A DNA stretch of 36,640 nt from NCBI GenBank assembly GCA_035631495.1, contig DASQIQ010000252.1, forward strand, positions 1-36,640. Direction: 5' to 3'. The position numbers were made by a program, and so were the translations under genes. Shown here piece after piece: positions 18,771 through 31,035 of the stretch (its first letter is position 1; each line of letters begins with the position of its first letter). The notes beneath the pieces are model-generated. The model was not told where the DNA came from, made no database searches, and saw only the letters and a list, made by a program, of their open reading frames with translations. This DNA comes from Micropepsaceae bacterium. Lineage in GTDB: Bacteria; Pseudomonadota; Alphaproteobacteria; Micropepsales; Micropepsaceae.

Positions 18771-18795
18771 GGAACTTTCGGCTTGCGCTTACGTT
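18771..18795 (+). promoter_or_regulatory. EcfG-type (general stress response) promoter
   Basis: GGAAC-tttcggcttgcgctta-CGTT (N16), about 65 nt upstream of the DUF1328 start. Confidence 0.8.
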
Positions 18796-18861
18796 CTTAA
18801 TTTTGACATCCGCTGCCGTTGCGCGGGCGACGGCAATCCGAAAAAACAAAGAGGTGTGACC

Positions 18862-19038
18862 ATGCTCCATTGGGCTCTGACATTCCTGGTGATTGCCATC
18901 ATTGCCGCAATATTCGGCTTTGGCGGGATCGCCGCGACAGCATCCAGCATCGCCCAGATTCTTTTCGTCGTGTTCCTGGCGCTGTTCTTGGTGAGCGCGA
19001 TTGTGGCGATGACACGCGGACGGCCCCCGGCAGTTTAG
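18862..19038 (+). CDS. DUF1328 (UPF0391/YtjA-like) small membrane protein
   Basis: [25 protein letters not shown]... is the family hallmark. RBS AGAGG precedes the ATG at 18862. Confidence 0.85.
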
Positions 19039-19079
19039 CGACACGGTTCAGCGCTTGGCCGCCTTTAGAAGCGGCCGGC

Positions 19080-19844
19080 ATGATGAGGAGCGGTCAATCC
19101 GCTCCTCTTTTTTTGCGTCCGGTGCGACACTGTTCGCGAACAAATGCCAAGGGGGCCGCATTGAGCAGAGATCGCCGATCTACGCCGAAGCATTCGCTGC
19201 ACAGGGGTGCGCATCTCCGCCTGTTGTTTGCGATCGCGGTGGGAGCCACTGTCGGCGCGGTTGCGCCAGTCGAGGATTGGGCCATCCGCTGGCTCATCGG
19301 CTGGGATGCGGGGGTCGCGGTTCTCCTGGCGAGCATCTGGCACATGATGGCGAGCACCACGCTGGAGCATTTGCAGCTCAAGGCGGCGCAGCAGGACGAG
19401 AATGCGCCCGTCATCCTTGCGCTGATGAGTGCTGCCGTCCTTGCCAGTCTCGGCGGAGTGCTCGCGGTCATTCACGACACGCGGCAGGCGGCGGCAGGTA
19501 CGACAGCCTATCTCATTTTGCTGGCGCTGGGCACGCTTCTGCTCTCCTGGCTTTGCATGAATATGCTGTTCGCTATTCATTACGCGCATCGCTACTACGG
19601 CGAACCGGCCCAGGAGACCGGCCGCGGTCTGATCTTCCCCGAACCCAATTCCGCGCCCAACTATTCCGAGTTCGTCTATTTCGCGTTTTGCATCGGCATG
19701 ACCTATCAGGTCTCCGACGTCATGACATGTACCCGTGCGTTCCGGCGGCTCGTGACTTTCCACGGTGCGTTGTCGTTCTTCTACAACACCTTCGTGCTGG
19801 CCCTGGCCGTCAATCTGTTCAGCGGGCTGTCCGGTCTGTTGTGA
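19080..19844 (+). CDS. DUF1345 membrane protein
   Basis: AIHYAHRYY...GL.FP....P.Y.EF.YFAF.IGMT.Q.SDV is the DUF1345 signature. The start is uncertain (ATG 19080 chosen). Confidence 0.7.
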   Translation: MMRSGQSAPLFLRPVRHCSRTNAKGAALSRDRRSTPKHSLHRGAHLRLLFAIAVGATVGAVAPVEDWAIRWLIGWDAGVAVLLASIWHMMASTTLEHLQLKAAQQDENAPVILALMSAAVLASLGGVLAVIHDTRQAAAGTTAYLILLALGTLLLSWLCMNMLFAIHYAHRYYGEPAQETGRGLIFPEPNSAPNYSEFVYFAFCIGMTYQVSDVMTCTRAFRRLVTFHGALSFFYNTFVLALAVNLFSGLSGLL

Positions 19845-19850
19845 GATCTT

Positions 19851-21554
19851 TCACGCTGGAACCGGCTCCGTCATCTTTTCGGGTTCGAAAAGCGGGTCGG
19901 GAAAGATGAGTTCGACCACGGTCCCACCGGTATCGCGCCGGCTCGCGATTGCCGTGCCACCGATCTGTTGCGCAAAAGCCTGGATAAGGCGCGAGCCAAT
20001 GCCGCCGCTTTCAGACTCGCCTTGGACGCCGCGCCCATCGTCCTCGATGGCGAGGCGCAGTTTGCCGTTTCCGATAGGCGCGAGGCTCACCCGAATCGCG
20101 CCTCCGCGCGCGCCTACCGGATAGGCGTGCTTGAAGGCGTTGGTGAGCGCCTCGACGGTAAAAAGCGTCAGTGGCACGGCGATCTCGCTCGGTGCCTGGC
20201 GGTGGGCAATGTCCACCTCAAGATGCAAATCGCGCCGCTCGGCGCCGAAGCCTTCTTGAATCTGATGCGCGAGATCCTGAATGAGCCGCCGCACATCGAC
20301 CGATCCCACATCTTCGATCTCGTGCAGGATGCGGTGAACGAGGGCGAGCGCATTGACGCGTATCTGCGCCTGCTTGAGCGCATCCTTGGCGGCGGGATCG
20401 CGCAACTTCGCAGTCTGCAAAGAAAGCAGACTCATGACGATCTGCAGATTGTTCTTCACCCGATGATGGGTTTCCTTGATCATCAAACTCTTGTTGTCGA
20501 GAGCCTCGCGCAAGCGGCGGTCACGGTCCTGCACGGCGCTGGCCATGGTGGAAAATGCCTCGCCCAATGCACGAAACTCGCTCGGCGCTTCTTCCAGCGC
20601 CACCGGGCGGATCGCGTAATGGCCACGGGCATAGGCGGTCGTAATGCGCCGCAGATACACGATCCACCGCGTGATCTGCCGGTCTGTGAAGATCCAGATC
20701 GCCGCCGATGCCAATCCCAGCATCAGAACCGGAAGCAGTAGGTCGGTGGTCACATGCAAATAGGTGCTGGCGAAGAGGCCGCTGTTGAGCATGGCGAAAC
20801 CCACCTTTATGGCGTTATTTCGCAGCGGCAGCAGGACGTAGCTCCAATTCTCGCCGTTCGCATCAACGGTAAACCGCTCGTCGCCTTTCGTGCCTTGGGG
20901 CGCCTTAACGAAGATCTTTGCGGCCGCTTCGGGGTTGTTGCTTGCCACAATCGTGCCGAGAGGATCGAACAGGGCGATAACCGCGCCGGATGGTAGCGAC
21001 CGGCTGTGCAGCAGAATGTCCAGCCATGCGACATCGAAGGCGAATGCCATCGCGCCATCGAACTCCACGCCCATTCGCAAGGGAATCACGCCGCCGAGAA
21101 CATTGCGGTGCGAAACGACGCTGTAGATCTGCGGCGTGATGAAAAAACCGGAATGTTGGTCCGTGGCTGCCCACCATGGCTGTTTGGAGACGTCCTTCTG
21201 TTCGGCGGGCACCGGCACAGCCGAGCAAAGCACATGGCCCGTCGCATCGATGCGCGCGATGTTGGTGAAATAATTGAGTCCCTTGATGGCGTTGGCGAGC
21301 GCTTTCCCGCAATCCGTCGCCCCGGCGCGCACCTCCGGCTGATTGGCGAGGGCGCGCAACACCTGTTCGCCCGACGCCAGCACCGCCTCCGCGTTGGCTG
21401 CGCTGCTGCGGGCGGTCTGAACGAGGCGGTCGCTGACGTCATTGACGTCGCGCTGCACACGATCGATGCCCTGAACCACGCTGACCACCGCGGCGGGCAG
21501 CAACCAGATGATGATCCAGAATAAAAGACGCAGGCGCAGGGATCTTCCACCCAT
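19851..21554 (-). CDS. HisKA_2/HWE-type sensor histidine kinase (PhyK-like) with periplasmic sensor and HAMP-like linker
   Basis: H-box ETHHRVKNNLQIVMSLLSLQ; C-terminal ATPase with DDGRG; two TM segments flank a ~280-aa extracytoplasmic domain. The ATG at 21554 lies 1 nt after the ecfG stop (TGAcATG). Confidence 0.88.
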   Translation of the reverse strand: MGGRSLRLRLLFWIIIWLLPAAVVSVVQGIDRVQRDVNDVSDRLVQTARSSAANAEAVLASGEQVLRALANQPEVRAGATDCGKALANAIKGLNYFTNIARIDATGHVLCSAVPVPAEQKDVSKQPWWAATDQHSGFFITPQIYSVVSHRNVLGGVIPLRMGVEFDGAMAFAFDVAWLDILLHSRSLPSGAVIALFDPLGTIVASNNPEAAAKIFVKAPQGTKGDERFTVDANGENWSYVLLPLRNNAIKVGFAMLNSGLFASTYLHVTTDLLLPVLMLGLASAAIWIFTDRQITRWIVYLRRITTAYARGHYAIRPVALEEAPSEFRALGEAFSTMASAVQDRDRRLREALDNKSLMIKETHHRVKNNLQIVMSLLSLQTAKLRDPAAKDALKQAQIRVNALALVHRILHEIEDVGSVDVRRLIQDLAHQIQEGFGAERRDLHLEVDIAHRQAPSEIAVPLTLFTVEALTNAFKHAYPVGARGGAIRVSLAPIGNGKLRLAIEDDGRGVQGESESGGIGSRLIQAFAQQIGGTAIASRRDTGGTVVELIFPDPLFEPEKMTEPVPA

Positions 21555-21555
21555 G

Positions 21556-22260
21556 TCAGGTGGCGTCTCGGTCCCCGTTCGATGCCTCGGACTCCGGCCC
21601 GTCAAGGGGCGCAAGGCGTTCAAGCTGCGCCATAATCTCATTGGTGGCGTCTCCCCCTGCCGGGCGCGGCTCGCTCGACAGCGGACCATTCCCCTCCAAG
21701 GCGGCGGATAGCGCCTTGCGTGCCCGCGCGACGCGGCTCTTCACCGTGCCAACGGCACAATTGCTGATTCTCGCCGCGTCTTCATAAGAGAAACCACCTG
21801 CACCAACCAAGATCAACGCTTCTCGTTGCTCCGCGGGCAAGCCCCGCAATGCGCGTGCTGTGTCGGAAAGCTGAACGGCCCAAACTTGCTCGCCTCTGGC
21901 GACCGGCATCCGCTCTGCGGCGGCATCGTCCCATGGCGCCTGGCGCCACGCCCGCCGCCGGTCGGAGTAGAATTGATTGCGCAGGATGGTAAACAGCCAT
22001 GCCTTCAAGTTGGAGCCGGCACGAAACGTGTCGCGCGACTGCCATGCCTTCGCGAGCGCTTCCTGAGCCAGATCGTCGGCCAGTTCCCGGTCGCCGCAAA
22101 GCGAGCGGGAAAAGGCTCGTAAGAATGGGATCAAACCGAGGAGATCTTTGCGAAAATCCTCATTCGTGTCGCCGATCGGCGGGGGTTCCCCGGCGCTCGC
22201 GCTGATAAAGGGCTCATCAAAATGTTTCACGAGATCAGTCCTTCTAGCCCTTTGTGGCAT
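21556..22260 (-). CDS. ecfG: ECF sigma factor of the EcfG (general stress response) group
   Basis: Region 2 (DDLAQEALAKAW...WLFTILRNQFYSDRRR) and region 4 (LILVGAGGFSYEDAARISNCAVGTVKSRVARAR). Sits between nepR and the kinase. The GTG at 22230, preceded by GAAGGA, is an alternative start that avoids overlap with nepR. Confidence 0.9.
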   Translation of the reverse strand: MPQRARRTDLVKHFDEPFISASAGEPPPIGDTNEDFRKDLLGLIPFLRAFSRSLCGDRELADDLAQEALAKAWQSRDTFRAGSNLKAWLFTILRNQFYSDRRRAWRQAPWDDAAAERMPVARGEQVWAVQLSDTARALRGLPAEQREALILVGAGGFSYEDAARISNCAVGTVKSRVARARKALSAALEGNGPLSSEPRPAGGDATNEIMAQLERLAPLDGPESEASNGDRDAT

Positions 22261-22462
22261 CGATCTTCTTCAGAAGTTCGAGAAAATCGTCGGGTACTGG
22301 CTCCTGAACCACCTCGTCATAGATGCGGCGCAATTCGCGTCCGATGGCACGCTGGCGTGCCCGCGCGGCGATCGTCTTTTCCCTATCGGGCTGTTCTTTT
22401 CTCACTTCCAAATTCCCACCCTCACGCCGTGCAGCTGGTCCGTCCCAAAATCGTCCGTCCAT
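22244..22462 (-). CDS. nepR: Anti-sigma factor NepR
   Basis: The C-terminal IGRELRRIYDEVVQEPVPDDFLELLKKID is the conserved NepR helix pair. Lies directly upstream of ecfG and divergent from phyR. Confidence 0.8.
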   Translation of the reverse strand: MDGRFWDGPAARREGGNLEVRKEQPDREKTIAARARQRAIGRELRRIYDEVVQEPVPDDFLELLKKIDATKG

Positions 22463-22532
22463 ACTCACCGGCCCTAGATTGCTCGTGCCCGGGGGGCGCC
22501 CCTCCCCGTTAAGGCTTTCCCTGAGTGGGAGA

Positions 22533-22557
22533 AACGGGCAAACTCGAAACTGGTTCC
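22533..22557 (-). promoter_or_regulatory. EcfG-type promoter for nepR-ecfG-kinase
   Basis: Minus strand reads GGAAC-cagtttcgagtttgcc-CGTT (N16). Confidence 0.85.
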
Positions 22558-22565
22558 ATAGCGAT

Positions 22566-22590
22566 GGAACATTCTCGCTCTTTGGTCGTT
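22566..22590 (+). promoter_or_regulatory. EcfG-type promoter for phyR
   Basis: GGAAC-attctcgctctttggt-CGTT (N16), 30 nt upstream of the phyR ATG. Back-to-back with the nepR promoter. Confidence 0.85.
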
Positions 22591-22619
22591 TGTTCCATAG
22601 CCATCGAGGGAACAAAATC

Positions 22620-23417
22620 ATGACAATGACAGAATCCTTAGCCCCCCATCTGCCCTATTTGCGGCGCTATGCCAGAGCCCTGACCGGATCGCAGTCAAGC
22701 GGGGACGCCTATGTGCGGGCTGCATTAACCGCGCTTTTGGCCGGAAAGTCGGATCTTTCCTCCGATCTACCGCCGCGCGTGGCCCTCTATCGGTTATTTC
22801 ATGTCATCTGGGCGGGTACCGCCAGTCAGCTCGATACGGACACCTCGCTGGATGTTAAGCACATGACCCCTGAGGAGCGTCTGCGCTCCCTGACGGCGTC
22901 GGATCGTGCGGCGCTCCTGTTGACGGCCGTTGAAGGATTTTCGCTGAGCGAGGCCGGCAAGATCCTCGATGAAACACCCGCAGAGGTCGAGCAGTCGATC
23001 GTCGAAGCCCAGCACGCGATTGAAAGACAGCTCGCATCGCGGGTCCTCATCATTGAAGACGAATCGATCATTGCGCTCGATCTCGACAATCTGGTGGTCG
23101 AATTGGGCCACAAGGTGGTGGGGACTGCCGCGTCAAAGGACGAAGCGGTCGCCAAAGCGCGCGCCCAACAACCCGGATTGGTCCTCGCGGACATCAATTT
23201 GGGCGAAGGCGGCTCGGGCATCGATGCGGTGACCGAGATTCTGCACAGTTTCGATATTCCCGTCATTTTCATTACGGCCTATCCGGAACGCCTGTTGACC
23301 GGCGAGCGGCCGGAGCCCACCTATCTGATCACCAAGCCCTTCCTGCCCGAAACGGTGCAGGCGACCATCGGTCAGGCGCTCTTCTTCCACTCGTTGCGGC
23401 ACGAAGCGGCGGCCTGA
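22620..23417 (+). CDS. phyR: Anti-anti-sigma response regulator PhyR (sigma-like domain plus receiver)
   Basis: LAPHLPYLRRYARALTGSQSSGDAYV... sigma-like N-terminus; receiver RVLIIEDESIIALDL...LVLADINLG...ITKPF. Confidence 0.95.
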   Translation: MTMTESLAPHLPYLRRYARALTGSQSSGDAYVRAALTALLAGKSDLSSDLPPRVALYRLFHVIWAGTASQLDTDTSLDVKHMTPEERLRSLTASDRAALLLTAVEGFSLSEAGKILDETPAEVEQSIVEAQHAIERQLASRVLIIEDESIIALDLDNLVVELGHKVVGTAASKDEAVAKARAQQPGLVLADINLGEGGSGIDAVTEILHSFDIPVIFITAYPERLLTGERPEPTYLITKPFLPETVQATIGQALFFHSLRHEAAA

Positions 23418-23418
23418 C

Positions 23419-23444
23419 GGAACCGGCGCTGCGCGTCACACGTT
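23419..23444 (+). promoter_or_regulatory. EcfG-type promoter
   Basis: GGAAC-cggcgctgcgcgtcaca-CGTT (N17), immediately after the phyR stop and upstream of the DUF883 gene. Confidence 0.8.
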
Positions 23445-23477
23445 CCCTCCGCGATGATCAACCAGACGGAGGGAACG

Positions 23478-23810
23478 ATGGCACGGGCCACGACGATGGC
23501 GCGCAAGCGCAAAAACGGAAATTCAAACAATGACGTGCAGGCGCGATTGGGCGTATTGCGCGCCGATCTCGATACGCTGCAACAGGACATGCGCGCATTG
23601 GTCAGCGATGTCGGAGAGGTCGCCAGCGAGCAGGTGCACGGAGCCGTGAACGCAGCCAGGGAGTCAGCTTCCGAAGCCGTCGAGCGCGTCGAGGAATGGG
23701 GCAATGAAAATCTCGAACCCGTGCGGGAAGCGGTGCGCATGCAGCCTCTCGCGGCTTGCATGCTCTCGATGAGCGCGGGCGCCATCATCGGCGCGCTGCT
23801 GTTGCGCTAA
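23478..23810 (+). CDS. DUF883 (ElaB/YqjD-like) C-tail-anchored stress protein
   Basis: Coiled N-terminal part, with the C-terminal PLAACMLSMSAGAIIGALLLR anchor typical of DUF883. RBS GGAGG lies 5 nt before the ATG at 23478. Confidence 0.8.
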   Translation: MARATTMARKRKNGNSNNDVQARLGVLRADLDTLQQDMRALVSDVGEVASEQVHGAVNAARESASEAVERVEEWGNENLEPVREAVRMQPLAACMLSMSAGAIIGALLLR

Positions 23811-23824
23811 CTACGATTTCGCGA

Positions 23825-24217
23825 ATGCTCAACCAATTCGGGCATCAGCTCGGCGCGCGCGCGATCGCGGGGGCTGTGCTGATGATCACGGTGTCGGCCT
23901 TGATCTGGGTTGGAGTCGCTTTTGCGGGCTATGCGCTTTACCTCGCATTTCTTCCCAGTGCCGGCGCGACTTTGGCCGCTTCCATCGCCGCCGCAATTCT
24001 GGTGATCGGGCCACTGTGCTGGGCGGCGATCGTCTACCTCCATGCCCATGCAACCCGAGCGAAGTATCATCCTGCCGAGGTTCGGGTGACGCCGGCCGAT
24101 CCGGCTGCTGCGACGCTTTCCCTGCTCGCGGCGCTCGCTCGGGACAAGCCCCTTCTCGCCGTGGTCTTCGCCGGCCTCCTTGGTGCGTCCGAGGCCCTCC
24201 AGCACCGCAAGCCTTGA
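23825..24217 (+). CDS. YqjE-like (phage holin family / DUF1469-like) membrane protein
   Basis: Two long TM helices. Position downstream of a DUF883 gene mirrors the yqjD-yqjE arrangement. Confidence 0.6.
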   Translation: MLNQFGHQLGARAIAGAVLMITVSALIWVGVAFAGYALYLAFLPSAGATLAASIAAAILVIGPLCWAAIVYLHAHATRAKYHPAEVRVTPADPAAATLSLLAALARDKPLLAVVFAGLLGASEALQHRKP

Positions 24218-24242
24218 GCTTGTGAGTAAGCCCTTGACTAGC

Positions 24243-24267
24243 GGAACTTAGACTTTCCCTGAACGTT
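24243..24267 (+). promoter_or_regulatory. EcfG-type promoter
   Basis: GGAAC-ttagactttccctgaa-CGTT (N16), upstream of the second DUF1328 gene. Confidence 0.8.
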
Positions 24268-24295
24268 TGAAGCGGGGAAGATGTGGGGTTTTCGC

Positions 24296-24469
24296 ATGTT
24301 CGGATGGGCGGCGGCGTTTCTGGTTTTGGCCGTTGTTGCAGCGTATCTCGGCTTCTTCGGGCTGGTTGGTCTTGCCGCTGTATTCGTCAAGTTCTTGTTC
24401 GTGGTGTTTCTCATACTTCTCGCGGGAAGCGGTTTGCTCGGACTGATCCGCGACGAACTGCCGTTCTGA
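24296..24469 (+). CDS. DUF1328 (UPF0391) small membrane protein, second copy
   Basis: MFGWAAAFLVLAVVAAYLGFFGLVGLAAVFVKFLFVVFLILL fits the family. The ATG at 24281 is an alternative start. Confidence 0.75.
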   Translation: MFGWAAAFLVLAVVAAYLGFFGLVGLAAVFVKFLFVVFLILLAGSGLLGLIRDELPF

Positions 24470-24489
24470 GCGGCGACCGGGGGGCGCGC

Positions 24490-24693
24490 ATGCTCAAAAT
24501 TCCTATGCAAACTTTGTTTGGTGCGGGGCTTCTCCTGACGCTGGCTTTCAGCCTCGATGACCGCGCTGCGGTTCCGAACCGGAGCGAGGCCCAGGCCAAA
24601 ATCCAGATTGCTTGCGAGGATGGCGGTTTTCCTGCCGCGACGCCGAATTCGCGGCGGGACGCCGGGCCCTGCCGCGAAACCGACTTTCCATAA
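24490..24693 (+). CDS. Possible small secreted Cys-containing protein
   Basis: MLKIPMQTLFGAGLLLTLAFS looks like a signal peptide. Starts 20 nt after the DUF1328 stop. No homology recognised. Confidence 0.3.
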   Translation: MLKIPMQTLFGAGLLLTLAFSLDDRAAVPNRSEAQAKIQIACEDGGFPAATPNSRRDAGPCRETDFP

Positions 24694-24908
24694 AATTAAG
24701 AAATTGCGATTCTCCCGGAACCAACTTCAGGGGACTCGCATTATGATGGGCGAGCGGGCCCTGATCCCAGGCTACGTCAAATTGCCCCCCTCGACAGTCG
24801 GCATCGGCGGTCCGCTCGTTCCCCCTCTCCCTTCCTTTCCGCGGTTCGATGGACCTTTGTTAAGGGGTCAATTATAGGCTAGGCGGGTTCCGAAATCCGA
24901 GTTGGCCC

Positions 24909-26105
24909 GTGAACATCAACATCGCCCGCAAGACCCTGGCGCCCAACGTCTCGATTGCGCGCCGCATCACGCAGGTGCGCCGCGACATCAAAGTCATCCG
25001 TGCCTGCGCCGTCGCGTTGCTGATTATTATCGCTCTCACCGCGAGCGTTGCGGGAGCCGACGTGCTTGCCCCCACAGTTATTGCAGCCACCCTGGCGCTT
25101 GTCCTCGCGCCCGTGGCGCGTGCTCTGGAGAGGCTGGGCTTTCCAACCGGTCTGGCCGCGGTCTTGGCAGTGGTGGCGACGGTCACCTGTCTTACGGCTG
25201 GTGCCTTCGCGCTGGCGCCCGATATTTCCAATTGGTTGAACGATGCACCCAAGATTGCCCAGTCGATCGAACGCAAGCTGCGGCCTCTTGCGCGTCAGGT
25301 TGCGGCTGTGGAAAGCGTCTCGACCCGGCTCACCCAAGTAGGCGCGAACGGGCCAGAGCCCGTGCGCAGCGTTGCCGCGTCGGACGGCTTGATCGTGACG
25401 GCCGCGCGCAATGCCCCGGCCATTTTGGGCAAGGGCGTCTATGTCACCGTGCTGACGATATTCCTCATAGCCTGCCGGCGGCGTTACACGATCCAGCTCA
25501 TTCTGTTGCCGCGAACATTCCAGAACCGGCTGCGGATGGCGAGGATCTGCCGCAACGTGAGAAGCCGGGTCTCCGGCTACCTCTTCACGCTGTCGCTGAT
25601 CAATATCGGACTTGCGGCGGTCACCGCGCTGTGTTTTTCGCTTGCTGGCATCAGCGACGCGATGCTCTGGGGGATCGCATTCGGTCTTATGAACTTCATC
25701 CCCGTTATCGGTCCCACCACCGTGATCGTGCTGGCGGCCGTGGTCGGTCTGGCGACCGCCAAGACGGTTCTGTTGGGGCTCGTTCCCCCGGCGATTCTGC
25801 TGGGGCTCAACACGGTCGAAGCCAATCTGGTGCAGCCCTGGCTGTTGTCGCGGCGCATCGTGATTTCGCCCGTCGCGATATTCCTGACGGTCGCCACCCT
25901 CGTTTGGATGTGGGGGCCGGCGGCATCGATTACGGCAGTCCCGCTGCTCATCTCCGTTCACACCGTGGCCCTGCACGTGCCGAGCTTACGCGGACTTGCC
26001 ATGCTGCTCGCCACAGACGATGGAGCGGCCGTGAAACGAAATGCGGGTCTTAGACGAGAGCCACGTAGATTGTGGCACCGGCGATCACGGCTAGCATCAA
26101 GCTGA
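24909..26105 (+). CDS. AI-2E family transporter (PerM/UPF0118)
   Basis: Multi-TM protein with the conserved segment GLMNFIPVIGPT...VEANLVQPWLLSRRI. GTG start. Confidence 0.85.
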   Translation: MNINIARKTLAPNVSIARRITQVRRDIKVIRACAVALLIIIALTASVAGADVLAPTVIAATLALVLAPVARALERLGFPTGLAAVLAVVATVTCLTAGAFALAPDISNWLNDAPKIAQSIERKLRPLARQVAAVESVSTRLTQVGANGPEPVRSVAASDGLIVTAARNAPAILGKGVYVTVLTIFLIACRRRYTIQLILLPRTFQNRLRMARICRNVRSRVSGYLFTLSLINIGLAAVTALCFSLAGISDAMLWGIAFGLMNFIPVIGPTTVIVLAAVVGLATAKTVLLGLVPPAILLGLNTVEANLVQPWLLSRRIVISPVAIFLTVATLVWMWGPAASITAVPLLISVHTVALHVPSLRGLAMLLATDDGAAVKRNAGLRREPRRLWHRRSRLASS

Positions 26106-26238
26106 CCACCAATATCATAATGACGTGACCGGAAATGACCCCTTGCCGGGCCTCTTCCGGCGTCAACATCGGCGTCTGATGGGCGCCGTCGCGGCCGCCA
26201 AATTCCATCGAATGGTCCCAAGGCTTTGTCTGTGCCAT
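26050..26238 (-). CDS. Small C-tail-anchored membrane protein (hypothetical)
   Basis: MAQTKPWDHSMEFGG...GHVIMILVVSLMLAVIAGATIYVALV has a single C-terminal TM. Overlaps the AI-2E 3' end convergently by 56 nt. Confidence 0.4.
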   Translation of the reverse strand: MAQTKPWDHSMEFGGRDGAHQTPMLTPEEARQGVISGHVIMILVVSLMLAVIAGATIYVALV

Positions 26239-26355
26239 TGCCCGTCTCCGTGATGCTCTTCCGGAAGTGAAAACGTGCCGTTCACCCGGGAGTTGCGGCA
26301 TCCCAAATTTGATAAGCATGGAACCAGCGGGAGTTTTGTGGAACCAATTGTCCTA

Positions 26356-26637
26356 TCAAGGTTTTTCCTCGTTCATTACGGCGCTCGAACGGCCCTGAGT
26401 GGCGTCTTGGGAGCGCAGCAATTCCTCACGGACGAGGCGAAGCTGCTGCAGCGGGTCGAGCCCGCTTTCCGGCGACTCGTCGCGCTCCTGCTGCTCCCTG
26501 GCTTCGCGTTCCCAGGCGGCTAGGATCTCCAGGCGGTCTGCATTGGTGAGGCGCCTGTCTCTGACAACGTCCGACGGATTGCGGTAATATCGGGAGGGAT
26601 AGAGCTTAGCGTCCTGGATGAATTTGGTTTTTTTCAT
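26356..26637 (-). CDS. Hypothetical acidic / coiled protein, divergent from ku
   Basis: 93-aa ORF with coding-like bias. A perfect EcfG-type promoter lies 34 nt upstream of its ATG. Confidence 0.55.
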   Translation of the reverse strand: MKKTKFIQDAKLYPSRYYRNPSDVVRDRRLTNADRLEILAAWEREAREQQERDESPESGLDPLQQLRLVREELLRSQDATQGRSSAVMNEEKP

Positions 26638-26668
26638 TGTAGGTCAGGCTTTAGGGCACCCGGCGAAG

Positions 26669-26693
26669 GGAACGCGCGCCTCGCGGCGACGTT
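26669..26693 (+). promoter_or_regulatory. EcfG-type promoter for ku
   Basis: GGAAC-gcgcgcctcgcggcga-CGTT (N16), 43 nt upstream of the ku ATG. Confidence 0.75.
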
Positions 26694-26695
26694 CC
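26671..26695 (-). promoter_or_regulatory. EcfG-type promoter for the 26356..26637 gene, overlapping the ku promoter
   Basis: Minus strand reads GGAAC-gtcgccgcgaggcgcg-CGTT (N16). Shares 23 of 25 positions with the plus-strand site. Confidence 0.7.
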
Positions 26696-26735
26696 GAATC
26701 CCGGGAATTCGAGACTTGAGGGGTAGATTCGCAAC

Positions 26736-27665
26736 ATGGCCACCACGAAGAAACGTCGAAAAGACGAACCCGAGGCTGAAACATCCAAACCTGCGCCGCG
26801 GCCCCGGATTCCCGGTCTATCGGCCCGGCCGGTCTGGCAGGGCATGCTGCGCCTATCGCTGGTGAGCTGCCCGGTGGCCCTCTACAAGGCCACGTCGCGC
26901 GCGAACGATATCTCCTTCAACCTGCTCAACCCCAAAACGAACAATCGCATCCGCATGGTCCCGACGGATCCGGAAACCGGGCCCGTCGACCGCGCCGATT
27001 TGGTGCGCGGCTACGAGGTCGAGAAGAACCGCTATGTGATCATCCAGGACGAAGAGCTCGATGCGGTGAAGCTGGAGACCACCCACACGCTCGACATCGA
27101 GCGCTTTGTCGATGCGGATTCGATCGACCGGCTGTTTTTCGACGTGCCCTATATTCTTCTTCCCACGGACGATATCGCCGTGAACGCCTATGCGGTCATT
27201 CGCGAGGCAATGCGGCAGACTCATCGCGTCGCCTTGGGGCGCGTGGTGATGCACACGCGCGAAAGGCTGATGGCGATGGAGCCGCGCGAGAAAGGGCTCC
27301 TGGTCCATTCGCTCAGGATGCGTGATGAGGTCGTCAATCTGCAGAAAGCGCTTGAATCGATTCCGGACATGAAACCCGACAGGCAGATGGTCGAGATCGC
27401 GGAAAAGATCATTGCGCAATTGGAAGGCCCGTTCGACCCCGATGAATTCCGCGACCGCTATGAGGAATCGCTGCGCGATCTCATTCGCCGCAAAGAGAAG
27501 GGCGAGAAGCCGACGGTTTCGGCACCTCCCGCCGAGCCGAGCAATGTCATCGATCTGATGGCGGCCTTGAAGAAGAGCCTCGGCGCCAAGGGCGCGCCAC
27601 CCAAGGGCAGCCCGACCAAACAGGCGACAGCCCCGGCCAAACCGTCCAAGAAGCGCGCGCGTTAA
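26736..27665 (+). CDS. ku: Ku protein (NHEJ DNA end-binding)
   Basis: VWQGMLRLSLVSCPVALYKATS...ISFNLLN...YEVEKNRYVII..EEL is the bacterial Ku core, with the usual basic Lys/Ala/Pro C-terminal tail. Confidence 0.95.
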   Translation: MATTKKRRKDEPEAETSKPAPRPRIPGLSARPVWQGMLRLSLVSCPVALYKATSRANDISFNLLNPKTNNRIRMVPTDPETGPVDRADLVRGYEVEKNRYVIIQDEELDAVKLETTHTLDIERFVDADSIDRLFFDVPYILLPTDDIAVNAYAVIREAMRQTHRVALGRVVMHTRERLMAMEPREKGLLVHSLRMRDEVVNLQKALESIPDMKPDRQMVEIAEKIIAQLEGPFDPDEFRDRYEESLRDLIRRKEKGEKPTVSAPPAEPSNVIDLMAALKKSLGAKGAPPKGSPTKQATAPAKPSKKRAR

Positions 27666-27680
27666 ATCTCATGGCACGAT

Positions 27681-28082
27681 TTACCCCCTCCCCTTGCGGG
27701 AGGGGGATAGGGGGAGGGGCGCTTCGCGAATTGCAGCGTCAATCATATCGAGCACTCCATCCATGTTCTCGAAAATATCCGGATTCCAAAAGCGTAAGAC
27801 GCGAAAATTCTCTGTGCGAAGCCAATCTGTTCTACGTTTATCGTGGTCTGCCTGCGCGACTTCCGCGTGTTGCCCGCCGTCGACTTCGATGACCAAGCGT
27901 GCGGGAAGACAAACAAAATCGCCGAAATATGGACCGAGAGGAAACTGACGACGAAAACGAAGGCCGTGAAACTGCTTACGGCGCAATTTTTGCCACAGCA
28001 GTTTTTCGGCTTCGGAGGATTGTTTGCGCAAGGCGCGCGAACGGAGGGTTGCTTTACCCCTCCCCCTCGCCCCCTCCCGCAA
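27681..28082 (-). CDS. DUF559 (Vsr-like endonuclease fold) protein
   Basis: LRKQSSEAEKLLWQKLRRKQFHGLRFRRQFPLGPYFGDFVCLPARLVIEVDGGQH...RVLRFWN is the DUF559 hallmark. Both protein termini are encoded inside the flanking repeats. Confidence 0.85.
   Translation of the reverse strand: MREGARGRGKATLRSRALRKQSSEAEKLLWQKLRRKQFHGLRFRRQFPLGPYFGDFVCLPARLVIEVDGGQHAEVAQADHDKRRTDWLRTENFRVLRFWNPDIFENMDGVLDMIDAAIREAPLPLSPSRKGRG
27684..27719. repeat. Left inverted repeat of the DUF559 cassette
   Basis: ccccctccccttgcgggagggggatagggggagggg. The first 23 nt form a perfect 9-bp-stem / 5-nt-loop hairpin. Confidence 0.85.
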
Positions 28083-28119: not shown

Positions 28120-30048
28120 CTACAGTTTCTTCAGTCTCTTCCACGCCGCGTCCAAGGATGCCGCGGAGGCCGCCAAATCTTTCCATGGATCGGGCCGCTT
28201 CGACATCGCCGTCGCACCCCGAATTGTAAACGCCGACGGATCGAGGCCTTTGCGCAATTGGCTCCAGGCAAGCGGCACGGCGATGGTCGCGCCTTCGCGC
28301 GCCCGCGGCGACCAGGGCGCAACCGCGGTCGCGCCCCGGCCGTTGCGCAAATAATCGAGGAAAATCTTTCCGGCGCGCTGTTTCTTGGACATGTTGGTGA
28401 CATAACGGTCGGGCGCCGCGCGCGCGACCTTCTCCGAAACGCCGAGCGCGAACGATTTGGCATCATCCCAGGTCACCGGCTTCTTGGGCGTTCCCTTGAT
28501 GGCGACCACCACATGCATGCCTTTGCCGCCGGTGGTCTTCACAAAGGGCGTCAGCCCGCAGGCCATCAGCACCTCGCGCATGTCCTTAGCGGCGTCCATC
28601 ACGCGCTCGAAGGACAATTCGGGCGCCGGATCGAGATCGAAGATCAAACGTTCGGGCGTTTCGGGATCGCGCGGCTTGCAGCCCCAGGGGTGAATCTCCA
28701 TTACCGCCGCCTGAGCAAGCGACACCAGGCCTTCCACGCTGTCGATGGCGTGAAAGGGCTGCTTCTCGCCGGCGGCCGGAATGGGCACGACCCCCGACGC
28801 GCCCGCGAGGACATGGCGCTGGAAAAAGCGCTCGCCGCCGATTCCTTCCGGCGCCCGCACCATCGAGATCGGCCTGAGCACGATATGCGGCAAGATGAGC
28901 GGGGCGATCTTCTCGTAATAGCGCGCGAGGTCGAGCTTGGTGACCGCCGCGTTGTTGCGCGTTGCCGGCCACAGAATTTTCTCGGGATGGCTGATGGTGA
29001 TGCCCGCGACGACATTGTCTGCCCGCGCGGCTGGCCTTTTCAACGATTTGGCGGTCGTCGATGTTTGGGCTGTTTGCATCATGTCTTTCTCCCCTTCCGA
29101 GCGTTCCTCTGCCTCCTGCACCGGCATCATCTGTTCCACCGCGACGGCACGCGCGGGCTTGTCGTCGCGCAAACCCTTGAAGGCTGCCTGCCGCAGCAAT
29201 CCGTCATGTGTGATGTTCGAGTACTCCACTTCCGCGACTTGCCTGGGCGCGACCCAGTGGATGTCCTTGGTGCGCGGCGGCTTGACGCCAGCGGTGAACG
29301 GCGATTTTGGCTGCTCGAGTTTCTTCAGTGCGCGCAGTACCGGCCCGGAATTCTCGGAGTTGAAACCCGTGCCGACGCGTCCAAGATAGGTGAAATCCTC
29401 GCCCCGGTAGGCGCCCACCAGTAGCGAGCGAAGTTTGGTCTGACTGCCCCACCAGGCGCCGATCACCACTTCCTGACCGCCGCGGCATTTCGCTTTGGTC
29501 CACAGATCGCTGCGGCCGGAACGATAGGGCGCGTCGCCGCGCTTGGAAATGATGCCTTCGAGATGGGCGCGGCAGGCGCTTCGCAAGAGTTCCTTACCCG
29601 ATGTCGAAAAATGTTCGACATAGCGGTAATGGGGAACATCGCTCCGGTTCGCCAGTAGCGTCGAGAGGAGATCCTTGCGCGCCGAAAGCGGTTGGCTACG
29701 CAAATCCACGCCCTCGAGGAAAAGAAGATCGAAGATGAAAAAAATCAACTCGGCCGTGCGCCCGTCCGAGAGTGCCTGCTGCAGTCCGGCAAAACTCGGG
29801 ATGCCCCGCTCGTCCAGCGCACAGATTTCGCCATCGATCATACAGTCGGGCAGACGCCTGCCTTCATGCGCGATTTCGGGAAAACGGTGGCTCCAGTCCA
29901 AGGCTTTGCGCGTGCGCAAAACCGCGCCGCGCTTCTCGGCCCGAAGCTGCATGCGATAGCCATCGAACTTGATCTCATGCACCCAGACCGCGCCGACGGG
30001 CGGTTCGTCCACCAGCCGGGCCAACTGGGGCGCCACGAACTCGGGCAT
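28120..30048 (-). CDS. ligD: LigD ligase plus polymerase/primase domains (NHEJ ATP-dependent DNA ligase), lacking the PE domain
   Basis: Ligase motif I EIKFDGYR near the N-terminus. C-terminal Pol domain (ITISHPEKILWP...FFQRH...FDLDP). The frame stays open 90 nt upstream of the ATG. Confidence 0.93.
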   Translation of the reverse strand: MPEFVAPQLARLVDEPPVGAVWVHEIKFDGYRMQLRAEKRGAVLRTRKALDWSHRFPEIAHEGRRLPDCMIDGEICALDERGIPSFAGLQQALSDGRTAELIFFIFDLLFLEGVDLRSQPLSARKDLLSTLLANRSDVPHYRYVEHFSTSGKELLRSACRAHLEGIISKRGDAPYRSGRSDLWTKAKCRGGQEVVIGAWWGSQTKLRSLLVGAYRGEDFTYLGRVGTGFNSENSGPVLRALKKLEQPKSPFTAGVKPPRTKDIHWVAPRQVAEVEYSNITHDGLLRQAAFKGLRDDKPARAVAVEQMMPVQEAEERSEGEKDMMQTAQTSTTAKSLKRPAARADNVVAGITISHPEKILWPATRNNAAVTKLDLARYYEKIAPLILPHIVLRPISMVRAPEGIGGERFFQRHVLAGASGVVPIPAAGEKQPFHAIDSVEGLVSLAQAAVMEIHPWGCKPRDPETPERLIFDLDPAPELSFERVMDAAKDMREVLMACGLTPFVKTTGGKGMHVVVAIKGTPKKPVTWDDAKSFALGVSEKVARAAPDRYVTNMSKKQRAGKIFLDYLRNGRGATAVAPWSPRAREGATIAVPLAWSQLRKGLDPSAFTIRGATAMSKRPDPWKDLAASAASLDAAWKRLKKL

Positions 30049-30059
30049 CTTGACGCGCT

Positions 30060-30794
30060 TCAGTGTTTTCGGGCGTTCCGCGCTCGGGCCATTGTTACGC
30101 GCGATGGACGGATCTTTTTTTTTACGATTATCGCCGGTTCAGCTGAAGGTTTGTCCTCATCGGCCGGCGCGCCCTTTTTGCGAGACGAGTGCCAGACCTT
30201 GGATTTCTTGCTGGACGCGATTTCCTCCAGCGTCCGGCCGGATTTCACGGAGGTGTCGGCGGCAAGAAGCGCATCCGCTTCACCGGGCAGTGCGAATTCG
30301 TCTTTTTCTTTGATGAGCAGCCAATTGTGGTGGAGCTTCCGCCCAAGCTTGGGCTTGTCGTCGCGCAGACGGATCAACGCCCAGCGGCCGTGCATGCGCT
30401 TGCCGTAGAGCAAGATTTTCAACTGGCCCTTGGCGAAATCGCCGCGCGGGTCATCGCTCTGCGGCGCCCAGGTTCCATAGTCCCAAAGCTGCACCGTGCC
30501 ACCGCCATATTGGCCTTGCGGTATGGTGCCCTCGAAGGTGCCGTATTCCAGGGGATGGTCTTCCACCTCGACCGCCAGCCGCTTGGTCGCCGGGTCGAGC
30601 GAAGGAACCTTCGTCACCGCCCAGGATTTGTAGACGCCATCCAGTTCTAGGCGAAGATCATAATGGAGCCGCGTCGCCGCATGGCGCTGGATAACGAAGC
30701 GCAGCGCTTTGGTCTTGGCGCGGGCCACACGCCCGCGCGGCTCCGCGGTGACGCCAAAATTGCGTTTGGCCCGATAGGTTTCCAGCCCAGCCAT
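30060..30794 (-). CDS. ligD: LigD 3'-phosphoesterase (PE) domain as a separate ORF
   Basis: YRAKRNFGVTAEPRG...FVIQRHAATRLHYDLRLE...SWAVTKVPSLDP...EDHPLEYGTFEGTIPQGQYGGGTV. Ends 17 codons after an A9 tract. Confidence 0.9.
   Translation of the reverse strand: MAGLETYRAKRNFGVTAEPRGRVARAKTKALRFVIQRHAATRLHYDLRLELDGVYKSWAVTKVPSLDPATKRLAVEVEDHPLEYGTFEGTIPQGQYGGGTVQLWDYGTWAPQSDDPRGDFAKGQLKILLYGKRMHGRWALIRLRDDKPKLGRKLHHNWLLIKEKDEFALPGEADALLAADTSVKSGRTLEEIASSKKSKVWHSSRKKGAPADEDKPSAEPAIIVKKKIRPSRVTMARARNARKH
30114..30123 (-). other. A9 homopolymer containing an in-frame A_AAA_AAG slippery heptamer at the PE / Lig-Pol junction
   Basis: Minus strand reads cgtAAAAAAAAAGatc. In the PE frame this is GTA AAA AAA AAG ATC. 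The -1 frame continues DPSIARNNGPSAERPKTLKRVKMPEFVAPQLA into the Lig-Pol ORF. Confidence 0.8.
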
Positions 30795-30824: not shown

Positions 30825-30980
30825 CTAGATACGCCCGATCAGCACCAGAATAAGAAGCACAACCACCACGGTGCCAAGCACGCCGCTCGGACCATAACCC
30901 CAGCCGCTGCTATAGGGCCAGCTTGGAAGTGCGCCGACCAGAAGCAGGATCAGGACGATAAGCAGAATTGTCCCTAGCAT
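30825..30980 (-). CDS. DUF3309 small membrane protein
   Basis: MLGTILLIVLILLLVGALPSWPYSSGWGYGPSGVLGTVVVVLLILVLIGRI is near-consensus DUF3309. Ends 30 nt upstream of the ligD PE start. Confidence 0.8.
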   Translation of the reverse strand: MLGTILLIVLILLLVGALPSWPYSSGWGYGPSGVLGTVVVVLLILVLIGRI

Positions 30981-31010: not shown

Positions 31011-31035
31011 AACTGCCCAGCCCGGCAAATGTTCC
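31011..31035 (-). promoter_or_regulatory. Near-consensus EcfG-type promoter (GGAAC-N16-AGTT)
   Basis: Minus strand reads GGAAC-atttgccgggctgggc-AGTT, 30 nt upstream of the DUF3309 ATG. One mismatch in the -10 element. Confidence 0.4.

What the first reader, a model, noticed from the sequence alone, without database searches (positions are those of the whole stretch)
26669..26695. Face-to-face, almost fully overlapping EcfG promoters drive ku and a divergent unknown gene
The 27-nt sequence GGAACGcgcgcctcgcggcgaCGTTCC reads as GGAAC-N16-CGTT on both strands. The plus-strand site spans 26669-26693 and the minus-strand site 26671-26695.

The -35 element of each promoter therefore overlaps the -10 element of the other. 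The plus site lies 43 nt upstream of ku, and the minus site 34 nt upstream of the 93-aa ORF 26356..26637.

Two sigma-EcfG holoenzymes cannot occupy both sites at once. The arrangement predicts mutually exclusive, stochastic firing of ku or its divergent partner under stress.

It also places the NHEJ end-binding protein in the general stress regulon. As far as I recall, stress (RpoE2/EcfG)-dependent NHEJ has been reported for Sinorhizobium meliloti. The overlapping bidirectional architecture is what seems unusual here.
Basis: partly seen in the sequence, partly recalled or inferred. Interest (0 to 1): 0.62.

Follow-up and report, generated by a model that had tools for sequence, protein, structure and literature searches.

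The report
Shared two-way stress promoter at ku
A single 27-base symmetric stress-sigma (EcfG) promoter box lies between the DNA-repair gene ku and a small unknown gene in a soil alphaproteobacterium and is strictly conserved in relatives, so it very probably drives both genes; both this two-way design and stress control of ku have been described before, so it is a well-supported new example, not a new kind of thing.

Summary
GGAACGCGCGCCTCGCGGCGACGTTCC (26669-26695) reads GGAAC-N16-CGTT on both strands, 42 nt before ku and 33 nt before a 93-aa ORF. The same window encodes PhyR, NepR, an ECF sigma factor and a HisKA_2 kinase, and holds seven perfect boxes where 0.5 are expected.

In 12 ku-linked loci from this Micropepsaceae genus (own included), both hexamers, GGAACG and CGTTCC, are invariant. 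The spacer and flanks are only 35-57% identical, and the spacer is 16 or 17 nt long. Three more metagenome contigs show the same box. Where the small gene has no divergent partner, its box is one-way. Where ku is truncated, the ku-side half has decayed. This supports a real bidirectional EcfG promoter (confidence about 0.75).

It is not a new kind:
- EcfG/RpoE2 control of ku was shown in S. meliloti and predicted for about 90% of ku-bearing Alphaproteobacteria.
- Palindromic EcfG sites driving divergent genes were proposed in 2009 and supported by RNA-seq in Erythrobacter litoralis.

"Mutually exclusive stochastic firing" rests only on steric inference. Work on sigma-70 bidirectional promoters suggests competition matters only at high promoter activity.

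Verdict: a new member of a known kind, of moderate interest.

The parts
26669..26695 (.). Symmetric EcfG box GGAACG-N15-CGTTCC, the core shared by both promoters
   Evidence: Both hexamers are invariant in 12 ku-linked loci.
26669..26693 (+). ku-directed EcfG promoter: -35 GGAAC 26669-26673, -10 CGTT 26690-26693. The TSS is inferred near 26700-26707.
   Evidence: The TSS position is inferred from the 13-14 bp offset reported for E. litoralis (10.1101/641647). Bases 26669-26670 and 26690 are used only by this orientation.
26671..26695 (-). Promoter directed at the 93-aa gene: -35 GGAAC 26695-26691, -10 CGTT 26674-26671. The TSS is inferred near 26664-26657.
   Evidence: A box at about -58 from the ATG is conserved across the small-protein family, including in loci without ku.
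26736..27665 (+). ku (309 aa), the NHEJ end-binding protein
   Evidence: Pfam Ku PF02735, 147.8 bits. Orthologues are 68-95% identical.
26356..26637 (-). 93-aa conserved helical protein of unknown function ('sp93'), the divergent partner of ku
   Evidence: No Pfam or NCBIfam match. 497 metagenome homologues, all annotated hypothetical. 13 invariant residues in the N-terminal 45 aa. AF2 model is all-helical, pLDDT 74.5, with no PDB relatives.
26050..26238 (-). 62-aa small membrane ORF downstream of sp93, possibly co-transcribed. A weak box (GCAAC-N16-CGTT) lies at 26296-26272.
   Evidence: A similar small ORF is called downstream of sp93 in L056, L058 and L059. No Pfam match.
21556..22260 (-). 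ECF sigma factor, EcfG by context
   Evidence: Sigma70_r2/r4_2 and a PhyR_sigma2-like match. It lies directly downstream of nepR and divergent from phyR.
22244..22462 (-). nepR anti-sigma factor
   Evidence: Pfam NepR PF18557, 56.3 bits against a cutoff of 25.7. The start is placed downstream of the box at 22557-22533.
22620..23417 (+). phyR anti-anti-sigma response regulator
   Evidence: NCBIfam NF006623, 349 bits against a cutoff of 240.
19851..21689 (-). HisKA_2/HWE sensor kinase with a dCache domain, in the nepR-ecfG operon
22533..22590 (.). Back-to-back, non-overlapping EcfG boxes for nepR-ecfG (22557-22533, -) and phyR (22566-22590, +). They serve as an internal reference for the motif this organism uses.
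31011..31035 (-). Near-consensus EcfG box GGAAC-N16-AGTT ahead of DUF3309 (30828-30980) and ligD (28120-30794)

Best explanation
The 27-bp element is one compact, bidirectional sigma-EcfG promoter. The EcfG -35 (GGAAC) and -10 (CGTT) are nearly reverse complements of each other. Adding three bases, a G after GGAAC and CC after CGTT, turns a one-way box into a perfect box on both strands. When PhyR is phosphorylated and titrates NepR, EcfG holoenzyme can bind the same 27 bp in either orientation. Bound one way it transcribes ku (TSS about 26700-26707). Bound the other way it transcribes the 93-aa gene (TSS about 26657-26664). Both genes, and probably ligD through its own near-consensus box, therefore join the general stress regulon. 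Shown here: the sequence, the presence of the regulators, and purifying selection on both hexamers. Inferred: EcfG dependence, the TSS positions, and that only one polymerase can occupy the site at a time. I read the main consequence as economical co-induction of the two genes. Interference between the two orientations probably matters only if occupancy becomes high.
For: (1) Perfect consensus on both strands at usable distances from both start codons. No sigma-70-like site lies in the 98-nt intergenic region. (2) PhyR, NepR, an ECF sigma factor and a HisKA_2 kinase lie 3-7 kb away. Five other perfect boxes in the window sit in front of typical stress genes (DUF1328 twice, a 118-aa ORF without a significant Pfam match, phyR, nepR). 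(3) In 12 ku-linked loci (Ku 68-95% identical), GGAACG and CGTTCC are 100% identical. The spacer is 57% identical and the flanks 35-50%. Three more metagenome contigs agree. (4) The spacer is 16 nt in most loci and 17 nt in L011 and L013. That is tolerated by EcfG promoters and unlike a rigid operator. (5) The three bases needed only by the second strand are not a default of the motif. The other five window boxes lack the full combination, and genome-wide base use at these positions is mixed. (6) Natural experiment: sp93 loci with no divergent partner keep a box at about -58, but it is one-way (GGAACA/C...CGTT TT/GT/CT). Where ku is a 66-aa relic (L016), the ku-side half reads GGAAAC. In L041 the symmetric box is shared with a divergent MFS transporter instead of ku. 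Fisher test on symmetry against an intact partner: 13/1 versus 1/10, p=3.5e-5. (7) Precedent: a palindromic EcfG site in E. litoralis has RNA-seq read starts on both sides (10.1101/641647). RpoE2-dependent ku3-ku4 and ligD4 were shown in S. meliloti (PMC6379672).
Against: The contrast between symmetric and one-way boxes runs largely between genera, so shared ancestry inflates the Fisher test. Within the genus, the one ku-less lineage (L006/L056/L057) still has the symmetric box. L014 keeps an intact ku, but its ku-side reads GGAAAC, with only a GGAAC-N16-TGTT alternative read by eye. Genome-wide, symmetric sites are not clearly over-represented: 3 are observed against about 1 expected, and one of them is intragenic. 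An invariant CGC triplet in the spacer (26677-26679) is not explained by the model.
Confidence: 0.75

Rival explanations
1. Only one orientation works. The box is the promoter of the 93-aa gene, which carries such a box across the whole family. The perfect ku-directed match is then a passenger, and ku is transcribed from another promoter, for example the sigma-70-like site at 26561-26590.
For: The sp93-directed box is the ancestral, family-wide feature. A 9/12 sigma-70-like site lies upstream on the ku strand. L014 and L016 keep only the sp93-directed site. The ku-less lineage L006 keeps the symmetric box.
Against: The three bases needed only for the ku-directed reading are invariant in 12 loci while neighbouring bases drift. 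One-way sp93 boxes elsewhere lack them. The other boxes in the window also lack them. EcfG boxes before ku are common in Alphaproteobacteria (PMC6379672; 4 strict among 20 sampled loci). In L016 the ku-side half has decayed exactly where ku itself is truncated.
Confidence: 0.13
2. The inverted repeat GGAACG/CGTTCC is the operator of a dimeric transcription factor that controls both genes. Its resemblance to EcfG boxes would be coincidental or secondary.
For: It is a perfect 6-bp inverted repeat with centres about 21 bp apart, roughly two helical turns. An invariant CGC triplet in the spacer is unexplained by the promoter model.
Against: Half-site spacing varies between 15 and 16 nt across orthologues. 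Homologous sp93 loci have non-palindromic GGAAC...CGTT boxes at the same distance from the ATG. The hexamers match exactly the motif used at phyR and nepR in the same window. There is no extra dyad symmetry in the spacer. No other promoter is recognisable in the intergenic region.
Confidence: 0.06
3. The symmetry reflects a conserved hairpin (an RNA or DNA structure), or is simply a chance palindrome in GC-rich DNA.
For: The 27-mer folds with a 6-bp outer stem plus GC pairs, z=-1 to -6 against full shuffles.
Against: With the hexamers held fixed, shuffling only the spacer gives equally stable folds: mean z is -0.5, and only 0-4 of 7-8 spacer positions are symmetric. No T-tract or terminator is present. 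If the promoters work as read, the element lies upstream of both inferred TSSs and is not transcribed. Chance expectation is 0.03 per window, and chance cannot explain conservation across 12 loci.
Confidence: 0.03

Closest known systems
Palindromic sigma-EcfG site between nepR-ecfG and the HWE kinase gsrP in Erythrobacter litoralis DSM 8509 (Fiebig et al. 2019, bioRxiv 10.1101/641647; hypothesis from Staron et al. 2009)
   Same: One GGAAC-N-GTTCC type site lies between two divergently transcribed general-stress genes. The -35 of each orientation overlaps the -10 of the other. Both genes belong to the stress regulon.
   Different: The genes are different: ku and a 93-aa unknown gene here, against regulators there. 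The spacer is N16 here (N17 in two orthologues). Both orientations here match CGTT fully. The evidence here is comparative (invariance in 12+ loci and decay where the partner is lost), whereas there it is RNA-seq in one strain. In this window the nepR-ecfG and phyR promoters are separate, back-to-back boxes.
RpoE2 (EcfG)-dependent ku3-ku4 and ligD4 promoters of Sinorhizobium meliloti (Dupuy, Sauviac & Bruand, NAR 2019, PMC6379672)
   Same: Ku and LigD are placed in the alphaproteobacterial general stress regulon through EcfG-type boxes. That paper predicts such boxes for about 90% of ku-bearing Alphaproteobacteria.
   Different: The S. meliloti ku3 box is one-way (GGAACA...) and its upstream gene is co-directional. 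None of 20 ku loci sampled from other alphaproteobacterial families has a symmetric box. Here EcfG dependence is inferred, not measured.
Bidirectional sigma-70 promoters arising from -10 element symmetry (Warman et al., bioRxiv 10.1101/2020.01.31.928960; NAR 2026, PMC12825309)
   Same: Sequence symmetry lets RNA polymerase bind one site in two orientations and drive divergent mRNAs, and one binding event sterically excludes the other.
   Different: Those promoters share a -10 hexamer and have separate -35 elements on either side. Here an ECF sigma is involved, the whole core is shared, and each -35 overlaps the other -10. The inferred TSSs are therefore about 36-50 bp apart. For sigma-70, competition was seen only at high activity and lowered noise, which does not match the predicted stochastic either/or firing.

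Membership tests
sigma-EcfG (ECF15) dependent promoter | GGAAC-N16/17-CGTT consensus on the transcribed strand | tested here: met
   Perfect match on both strands.
sigma-EcfG (ECF15) dependent promoter | The genome encodes the PhyR-NepR-EcfG partner-switch system | tested here: met
   PhyR NF006623 at 349 bits. NepR PF18557 at 56 bits, an adjacent ECF sigma factor and a HisKA_2 kinase.
sigma-EcfG (ECF15) dependent promoter | Position upstream of a gene start at promoter-like distance, conserved in orthologues | tested here: met
   42 nt and 33 nt to the two ATGs. The box starts about 58 nt upstream of the sp93 ATG across the family. The hexamers are invariant.
sigma-EcfG (ECF15) dependent promoter | Stress-induced transcription start that depends on ecfG and phyR | not testable with these tools
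Bidirectional promoter (one polymerase site read in two orientations) | Promoter elements for both orientations coincide within one polymerase binding site | tested here: met
   The two sites overlap by 23 of 25 nt.
Bidirectional promoter (one polymerase site read in two orientations) | Selection acts on the elements of both orientations | tested here: met
   The bases unique to each orientation (26669-70, 26674, 26690, 26694-95) are invariant in 12 loci. They are lost or absent where no partner gene exists.
Bidirectional promoter (one polymerase site read in two orientations) | Divergent transcripts demonstrably start on both sides | not testable with these tools
   No RNA data were accessible.
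sigma-70-type bidirectional promoter (shared -10 hexamer) | A shared, symmetric -10 element with separate flanking -35 elements | tested here: not met
   Here each -35 overlaps the other orientation's -10, and the sigma factor is an ECF type.
Operator of a dimeric regulator | Fixed spacing of the half-sites across orthologues | tested here: not met
   15 nt between hexamers in most loci, 16 nt in L011 and L013.
Bacterial Ku (NHEJ) | Ku70/80 beta-barrel core domain, with LigD nearby | tested here: met
   PF02735, E=4e-43. LigD ligase and Prim-Pol domains at 28120-30048.

The most novel reading that the evidence does not exclude
The 93-aa helical protein may be more than a co-regulated bystander. 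It could be an unrecognised partner or modulator of bacterial Ku/LigD end-joining, tied to ku by a shared two-way stress promoter that couples their production. Its family has no Pfam, NCBIfam or PDB relative. It sits head-to-head with ku throughout one Micropepsaceae genus and directly downstream of a ligD polymerase-domain gene in another genus. In the genus it is present almost only where ku is present.
Probability: 0.15. Interest if true: 0.6.

Novelty: new member of a known kind. Interest (0 to 1): 0.36.

Why it matters
Bidirectional use of the near-palindromic EcfG motif has so far rested on a 2009 suggestion and on RNA-seq from a single locus in one strain. This locus adds independent evolutionary evidence that both orientations are under selection. 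Twelve bases stay invariant while everything around them drifts. The ku-side half has decayed where ku is truncated, and the box is one-way where no divergent partner exists. The locus also extends stress-inducible NHEJ to an uncultured soil family, and it flags a conserved small protein that is co-regulated with Ku. It gives a compact, well-defined test case for how ECF holoenzymes choose orientation on a symmetric site, with separating mutations at 26669-70 and 26694-95. It does not change how the general stress response or NHEJ is understood.

Tried and rejected
2. Hairpin or terminator reading: rejected. The apparent stability comes from the hexamers alone, and spacer-only shuffles fold equally well. 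No terminator is present.
3. Function of the 93-aa protein: there are no matches in Pfam or NCBIfam, none by PDB sequence profile (best E=0.066), and none by Foldseek against the PDB (best E=2.7). Two JGI labels reading 'Arc/MetJ ribbon-helix-helix' are not supported by the all-helical model.
4. S. meliloti comparison: the first pSymA region I fetched holds a different ku-ligase pair with no box. The ku3-ku4 pair is on pSymB, and its box is one-way. The supplementary figure of PMC6379672 is not held.
5. Genome-wide enrichment of symmetric sites: not significant. The C423 site is intragenic. The C216 site lies 31 nt from a Cys-rich four-helix gene and 108 nt from a PrpD-like gene, and remains undecided.
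6. ku loci without the small gene within the family: mostly no strict box, so they say little about one-way ku boxes.
7. Literature search for 'EcfG' together with 'bidirectional promoter' found nothing. The prior art surfaced only under 'palindrom'.

Full report
**1. Observation**

Positions 26669-26695 read GGAACGCGCGCCTCGCGGCGACGTTCC. The EcfG consensus GGAAC-N16-CGTT is matched at 26669-26693 on the plus strand and at 26671-26695 on the minus strand.
- ku (26736-27665, +; Pfam Ku, E=4e-43) starts 42 nt after the plus-strand site.
- A 93-aa ORF (26356-26637, -) starts 33 nt after the minus-strand site.
- The transcripts would diverge, so these are fully overlapping divergent promoters and not 'face-to-face' ones.
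- The window holds 7 perfect consensus sites against 0.51 expected.
- The 12-base symmetric pattern is expected 0.03 times per window.
- No sigma-70-like promoter lies in the 98-nt intergenic region. One 9/12 match lies inside the small ORF at 26561-26590.

**2. Context**

The window carries the master general-stress locus.
- A dCache/HisKA_2 kinase (19851-21689, -), an ECF sigma factor (21556-22260, -), NepR (PF18557, 56 bits; 22244-22462, -) and PhyR (NF006623, 349 bits against a cutoff of 240; 22620-23417, +) are all present.
- Separate back-to-back boxes sit at 22557-22533 (-) and 22566-22590 (+).
- Other perfect boxes precede two DUF1328 genes and a 118-aa ORF at 23454-23810 that has no significant Pfam match.
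- On the far side of the NHEJ cluster, a one-mismatch box (GGAAC-N16-AGTT, 31035-31011, -) precedes a DUF3309 peptide and ligD.
- The organism therefore uses exactly this motif, and the ku locus lies at the edge of a stress-gene island.
- The genome is a 3.48-Mb, 492-contig MAG. Named relatives are Micropepsaceae or Rhizomicrobium MAGs.

**3. Comparative test**

The 93-aa protein has homologues in 22 of 61 related genomes. ku is its divergent neighbour in 13 of these loci, own genome included, and in L042 at a contig edge.
- Across the 12 loci with a symmetric box (Ku 68-95% identical), the two hexamers GGAACG and CGTTCC are 100% identical. The spacer is 57% identical, and the flanks are 50% and 35%.
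- The spacer is 16 nt, or 17 nt in L011 and L013.
- Three further metagenome contigs (L058, L059, L061) have the same arrangement.
- The three bases needed only by the second orientation are a G after GGAAC and CC after CGTT. They are not a default of the motif: the other five boxes in the window lack the combination, and genome-wide usage at these positions is mixed.

**4. Natural experiment**

- Where the small gene has no divergent partner (L012, L015, L017, L037, L039, L040, and the distant L019-L021), it still has a box beginning 58-94 nt upstream of its ATG, about -58 in the closer relatives. That box is one-way: GGAACA/C/T...CGTT followed by TT, GT, CT or TC.
- In L016, ku is reduced to a 66-aa relic that abuts a ligD polymerase-domain gene, and the ku-side half reads GGAAAC.
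- In L041 a symmetric box is shared with a divergent MFS transporter. In the related L018 the small gene carries a stop codon, and only the transporter-directed box is intact.
- Exceptions: L014 has an intact ku but GGAAAC on the ku side. The abundant ku-less lineage L006/L056/L057 keeps the symmetric box next to a 53-aa relic ORF.
- A 2x2 test of symmetry against an intact partner gives 13/1 versus 1/10, p=3.5e-5. The loci are not phylogenetically independent, and the contrast runs mostly between genera.

**5. Rivals**

- Hairpin: with the hexamers held fixed, spacer shuffles fold as well as the native sequence (mean z=-0.5), and the spacer has no dyad symmetry. Rejected.
- Operator of a dimeric regulator: the variable half-site spacing, the identity with the organism's EcfG motif, and non-palindromic boxes at the same position in partner-less homologues all argue against it. 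An invariant CGC triplet in the spacer (26677-26679) remains unexplained.
- One functional orientation only: this is the strongest rival. The invariance of the orientation-specific bases, and their absence or decay where the partner is missing, argue against it.

**6. What is known**

- Dupuy et al. (PMC6379672) showed with lacZ fusions that S. meliloti ku3-ku4 and ligD4 depend on RpoE2. They state that in about 90% of ku-bearing Alphaproteobacteria at least one ku is preceded by a putative EcfG box. Ku in the stress regulon is therefore known.
- I located ku3-ku4 on pSymB. Its box is one-way and the upstream gene is co-directional.
- Among 20 ku loci from other alphaproteobacterial families, 4 have strict and about 5 have loose ku-directed boxes. 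None is symmetric.
- The overlapping architecture is also known. Fiebig et al. (10.1101/641647) cite the Staron et al. 2009 hypothesis that the near-palindromic EcfG motif could act bidirectionally. They show a GGAAC-N17-GTTCC site between nepR-ecfG and gsrP, with RNA-seq read starts 13-14 bp beyond each end and both genes stress-regulated. They state that the mechanism is unknown.
- Sigma-70 bidirectional promoters with a shared -10 are well described. Steric competition there appears only at high activity and lowers noise in the constrained direction (PMC12825309).

**7. Mechanism and verdict**

Most likely (0.75), EcfG holoenzyme binds this 27-bp site in either orientation and induces both ku and the small gene under stress.
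- Steric exclusivity of two polymerases on one core follows from the known size of a polymerase footprint (inference).
- Whether exclusivity produces anticorrelated, stochastic expression is untested. The sigma-70 data suggest it would matter only at high occupancy.
- The small protein is a conserved, all-helical family of unknown function. It has no sequence or fold relatives.
- Its tight linkage to ku and ligD in two genera allows an NHEJ-related role but does not show one.

Novelty: a new member of a known kind. Its value lies mainly in the comparative evidence that both orientations are under selection.

Noticed in passing
window 26677-26679: A CGC triplet inside the promoter spacer is invariant in all 12 ku-linked loci, while the rest of the spacer drifts. 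It lies 3 nt downstream of the ku-side -35 and 2 nt upstream of the other promoter's -10. The two-promoter model does not explain it.
   Followed up: partly
window 31011-31035 (-), 30828-30980 (-): A near-consensus EcfG box (GGAAC-N16-AGTT) lies 30 nt ahead of a DUF3309 mini-protein that precedes the ligD ORFs. Both arms of the convergent ku/ligD cluster may therefore be stress-induced.
   Followed up: partly
window 26050-26296 (-): A 62-aa small membrane ORF lies just downstream of the 93-aa gene, with a one-mismatch box (GCAAC-N16-CGTT, 26296-26272). An equivalent small ORF follows the 93-aa gene in metagenome contigs L056, L058 and L059, and a convergent AI-2E transporter gene is also syntenic there.
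   Followed up: partly
window 27681-28082 (-): A DUF559 endonuclease-like ORF sits between ku and ligD in this genome. In relative L059/L060, ku and ligD are separated by only 5 nt, so this ORF looks like a lineage-specific insertion.
   Followed up: no
genome contig C216:4280-4307: A second intergenic symmetric EcfG site (N17) lies 31 nt upstream of a Cys-rich four-helix-bundle gene and 108 nt upstream of a divergent PrpD/MmgE-like gene with a Tat-like signal. It is undecided whether both directions are used.
   Followed up: partly
L041:2932-2959 and L018: In another lineage the 93-aa gene shares a symmetric EcfG box with a divergent MFS transporter. In a relative where the small gene carries a stop codon, only the transporter-directed box remains intact.
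   Followed up: partly
L006 / L027 / L056 / L057: In an abundant lineage (index entries in 46 collection blocks), ku and ligD are missing and an acyl-CoA dehydrogenase gene abuts the site. The symmetric box and a 53-aa Lys/Ala-rich relic ORF remain on the former ku side.
   Followed up: partly
window 18771-26695: Seven perfect EcfG boxes lie within 8 kb around nepR-ecfG-kinase and phyR, which makes this a compact general-stress island. The genome as a whole has 89 sites against about 53 expected.
   Followed up: yes
L012 (G030) and L016 (G024): In a second genus the 93-aa gene lies directly downstream of, and in the same direction as, a gene that matches only the polymerase half of ligD (residues about 344-642 of the window's LigD). 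G030 has no ku match in the whole-genome search.
   Followed up: partly
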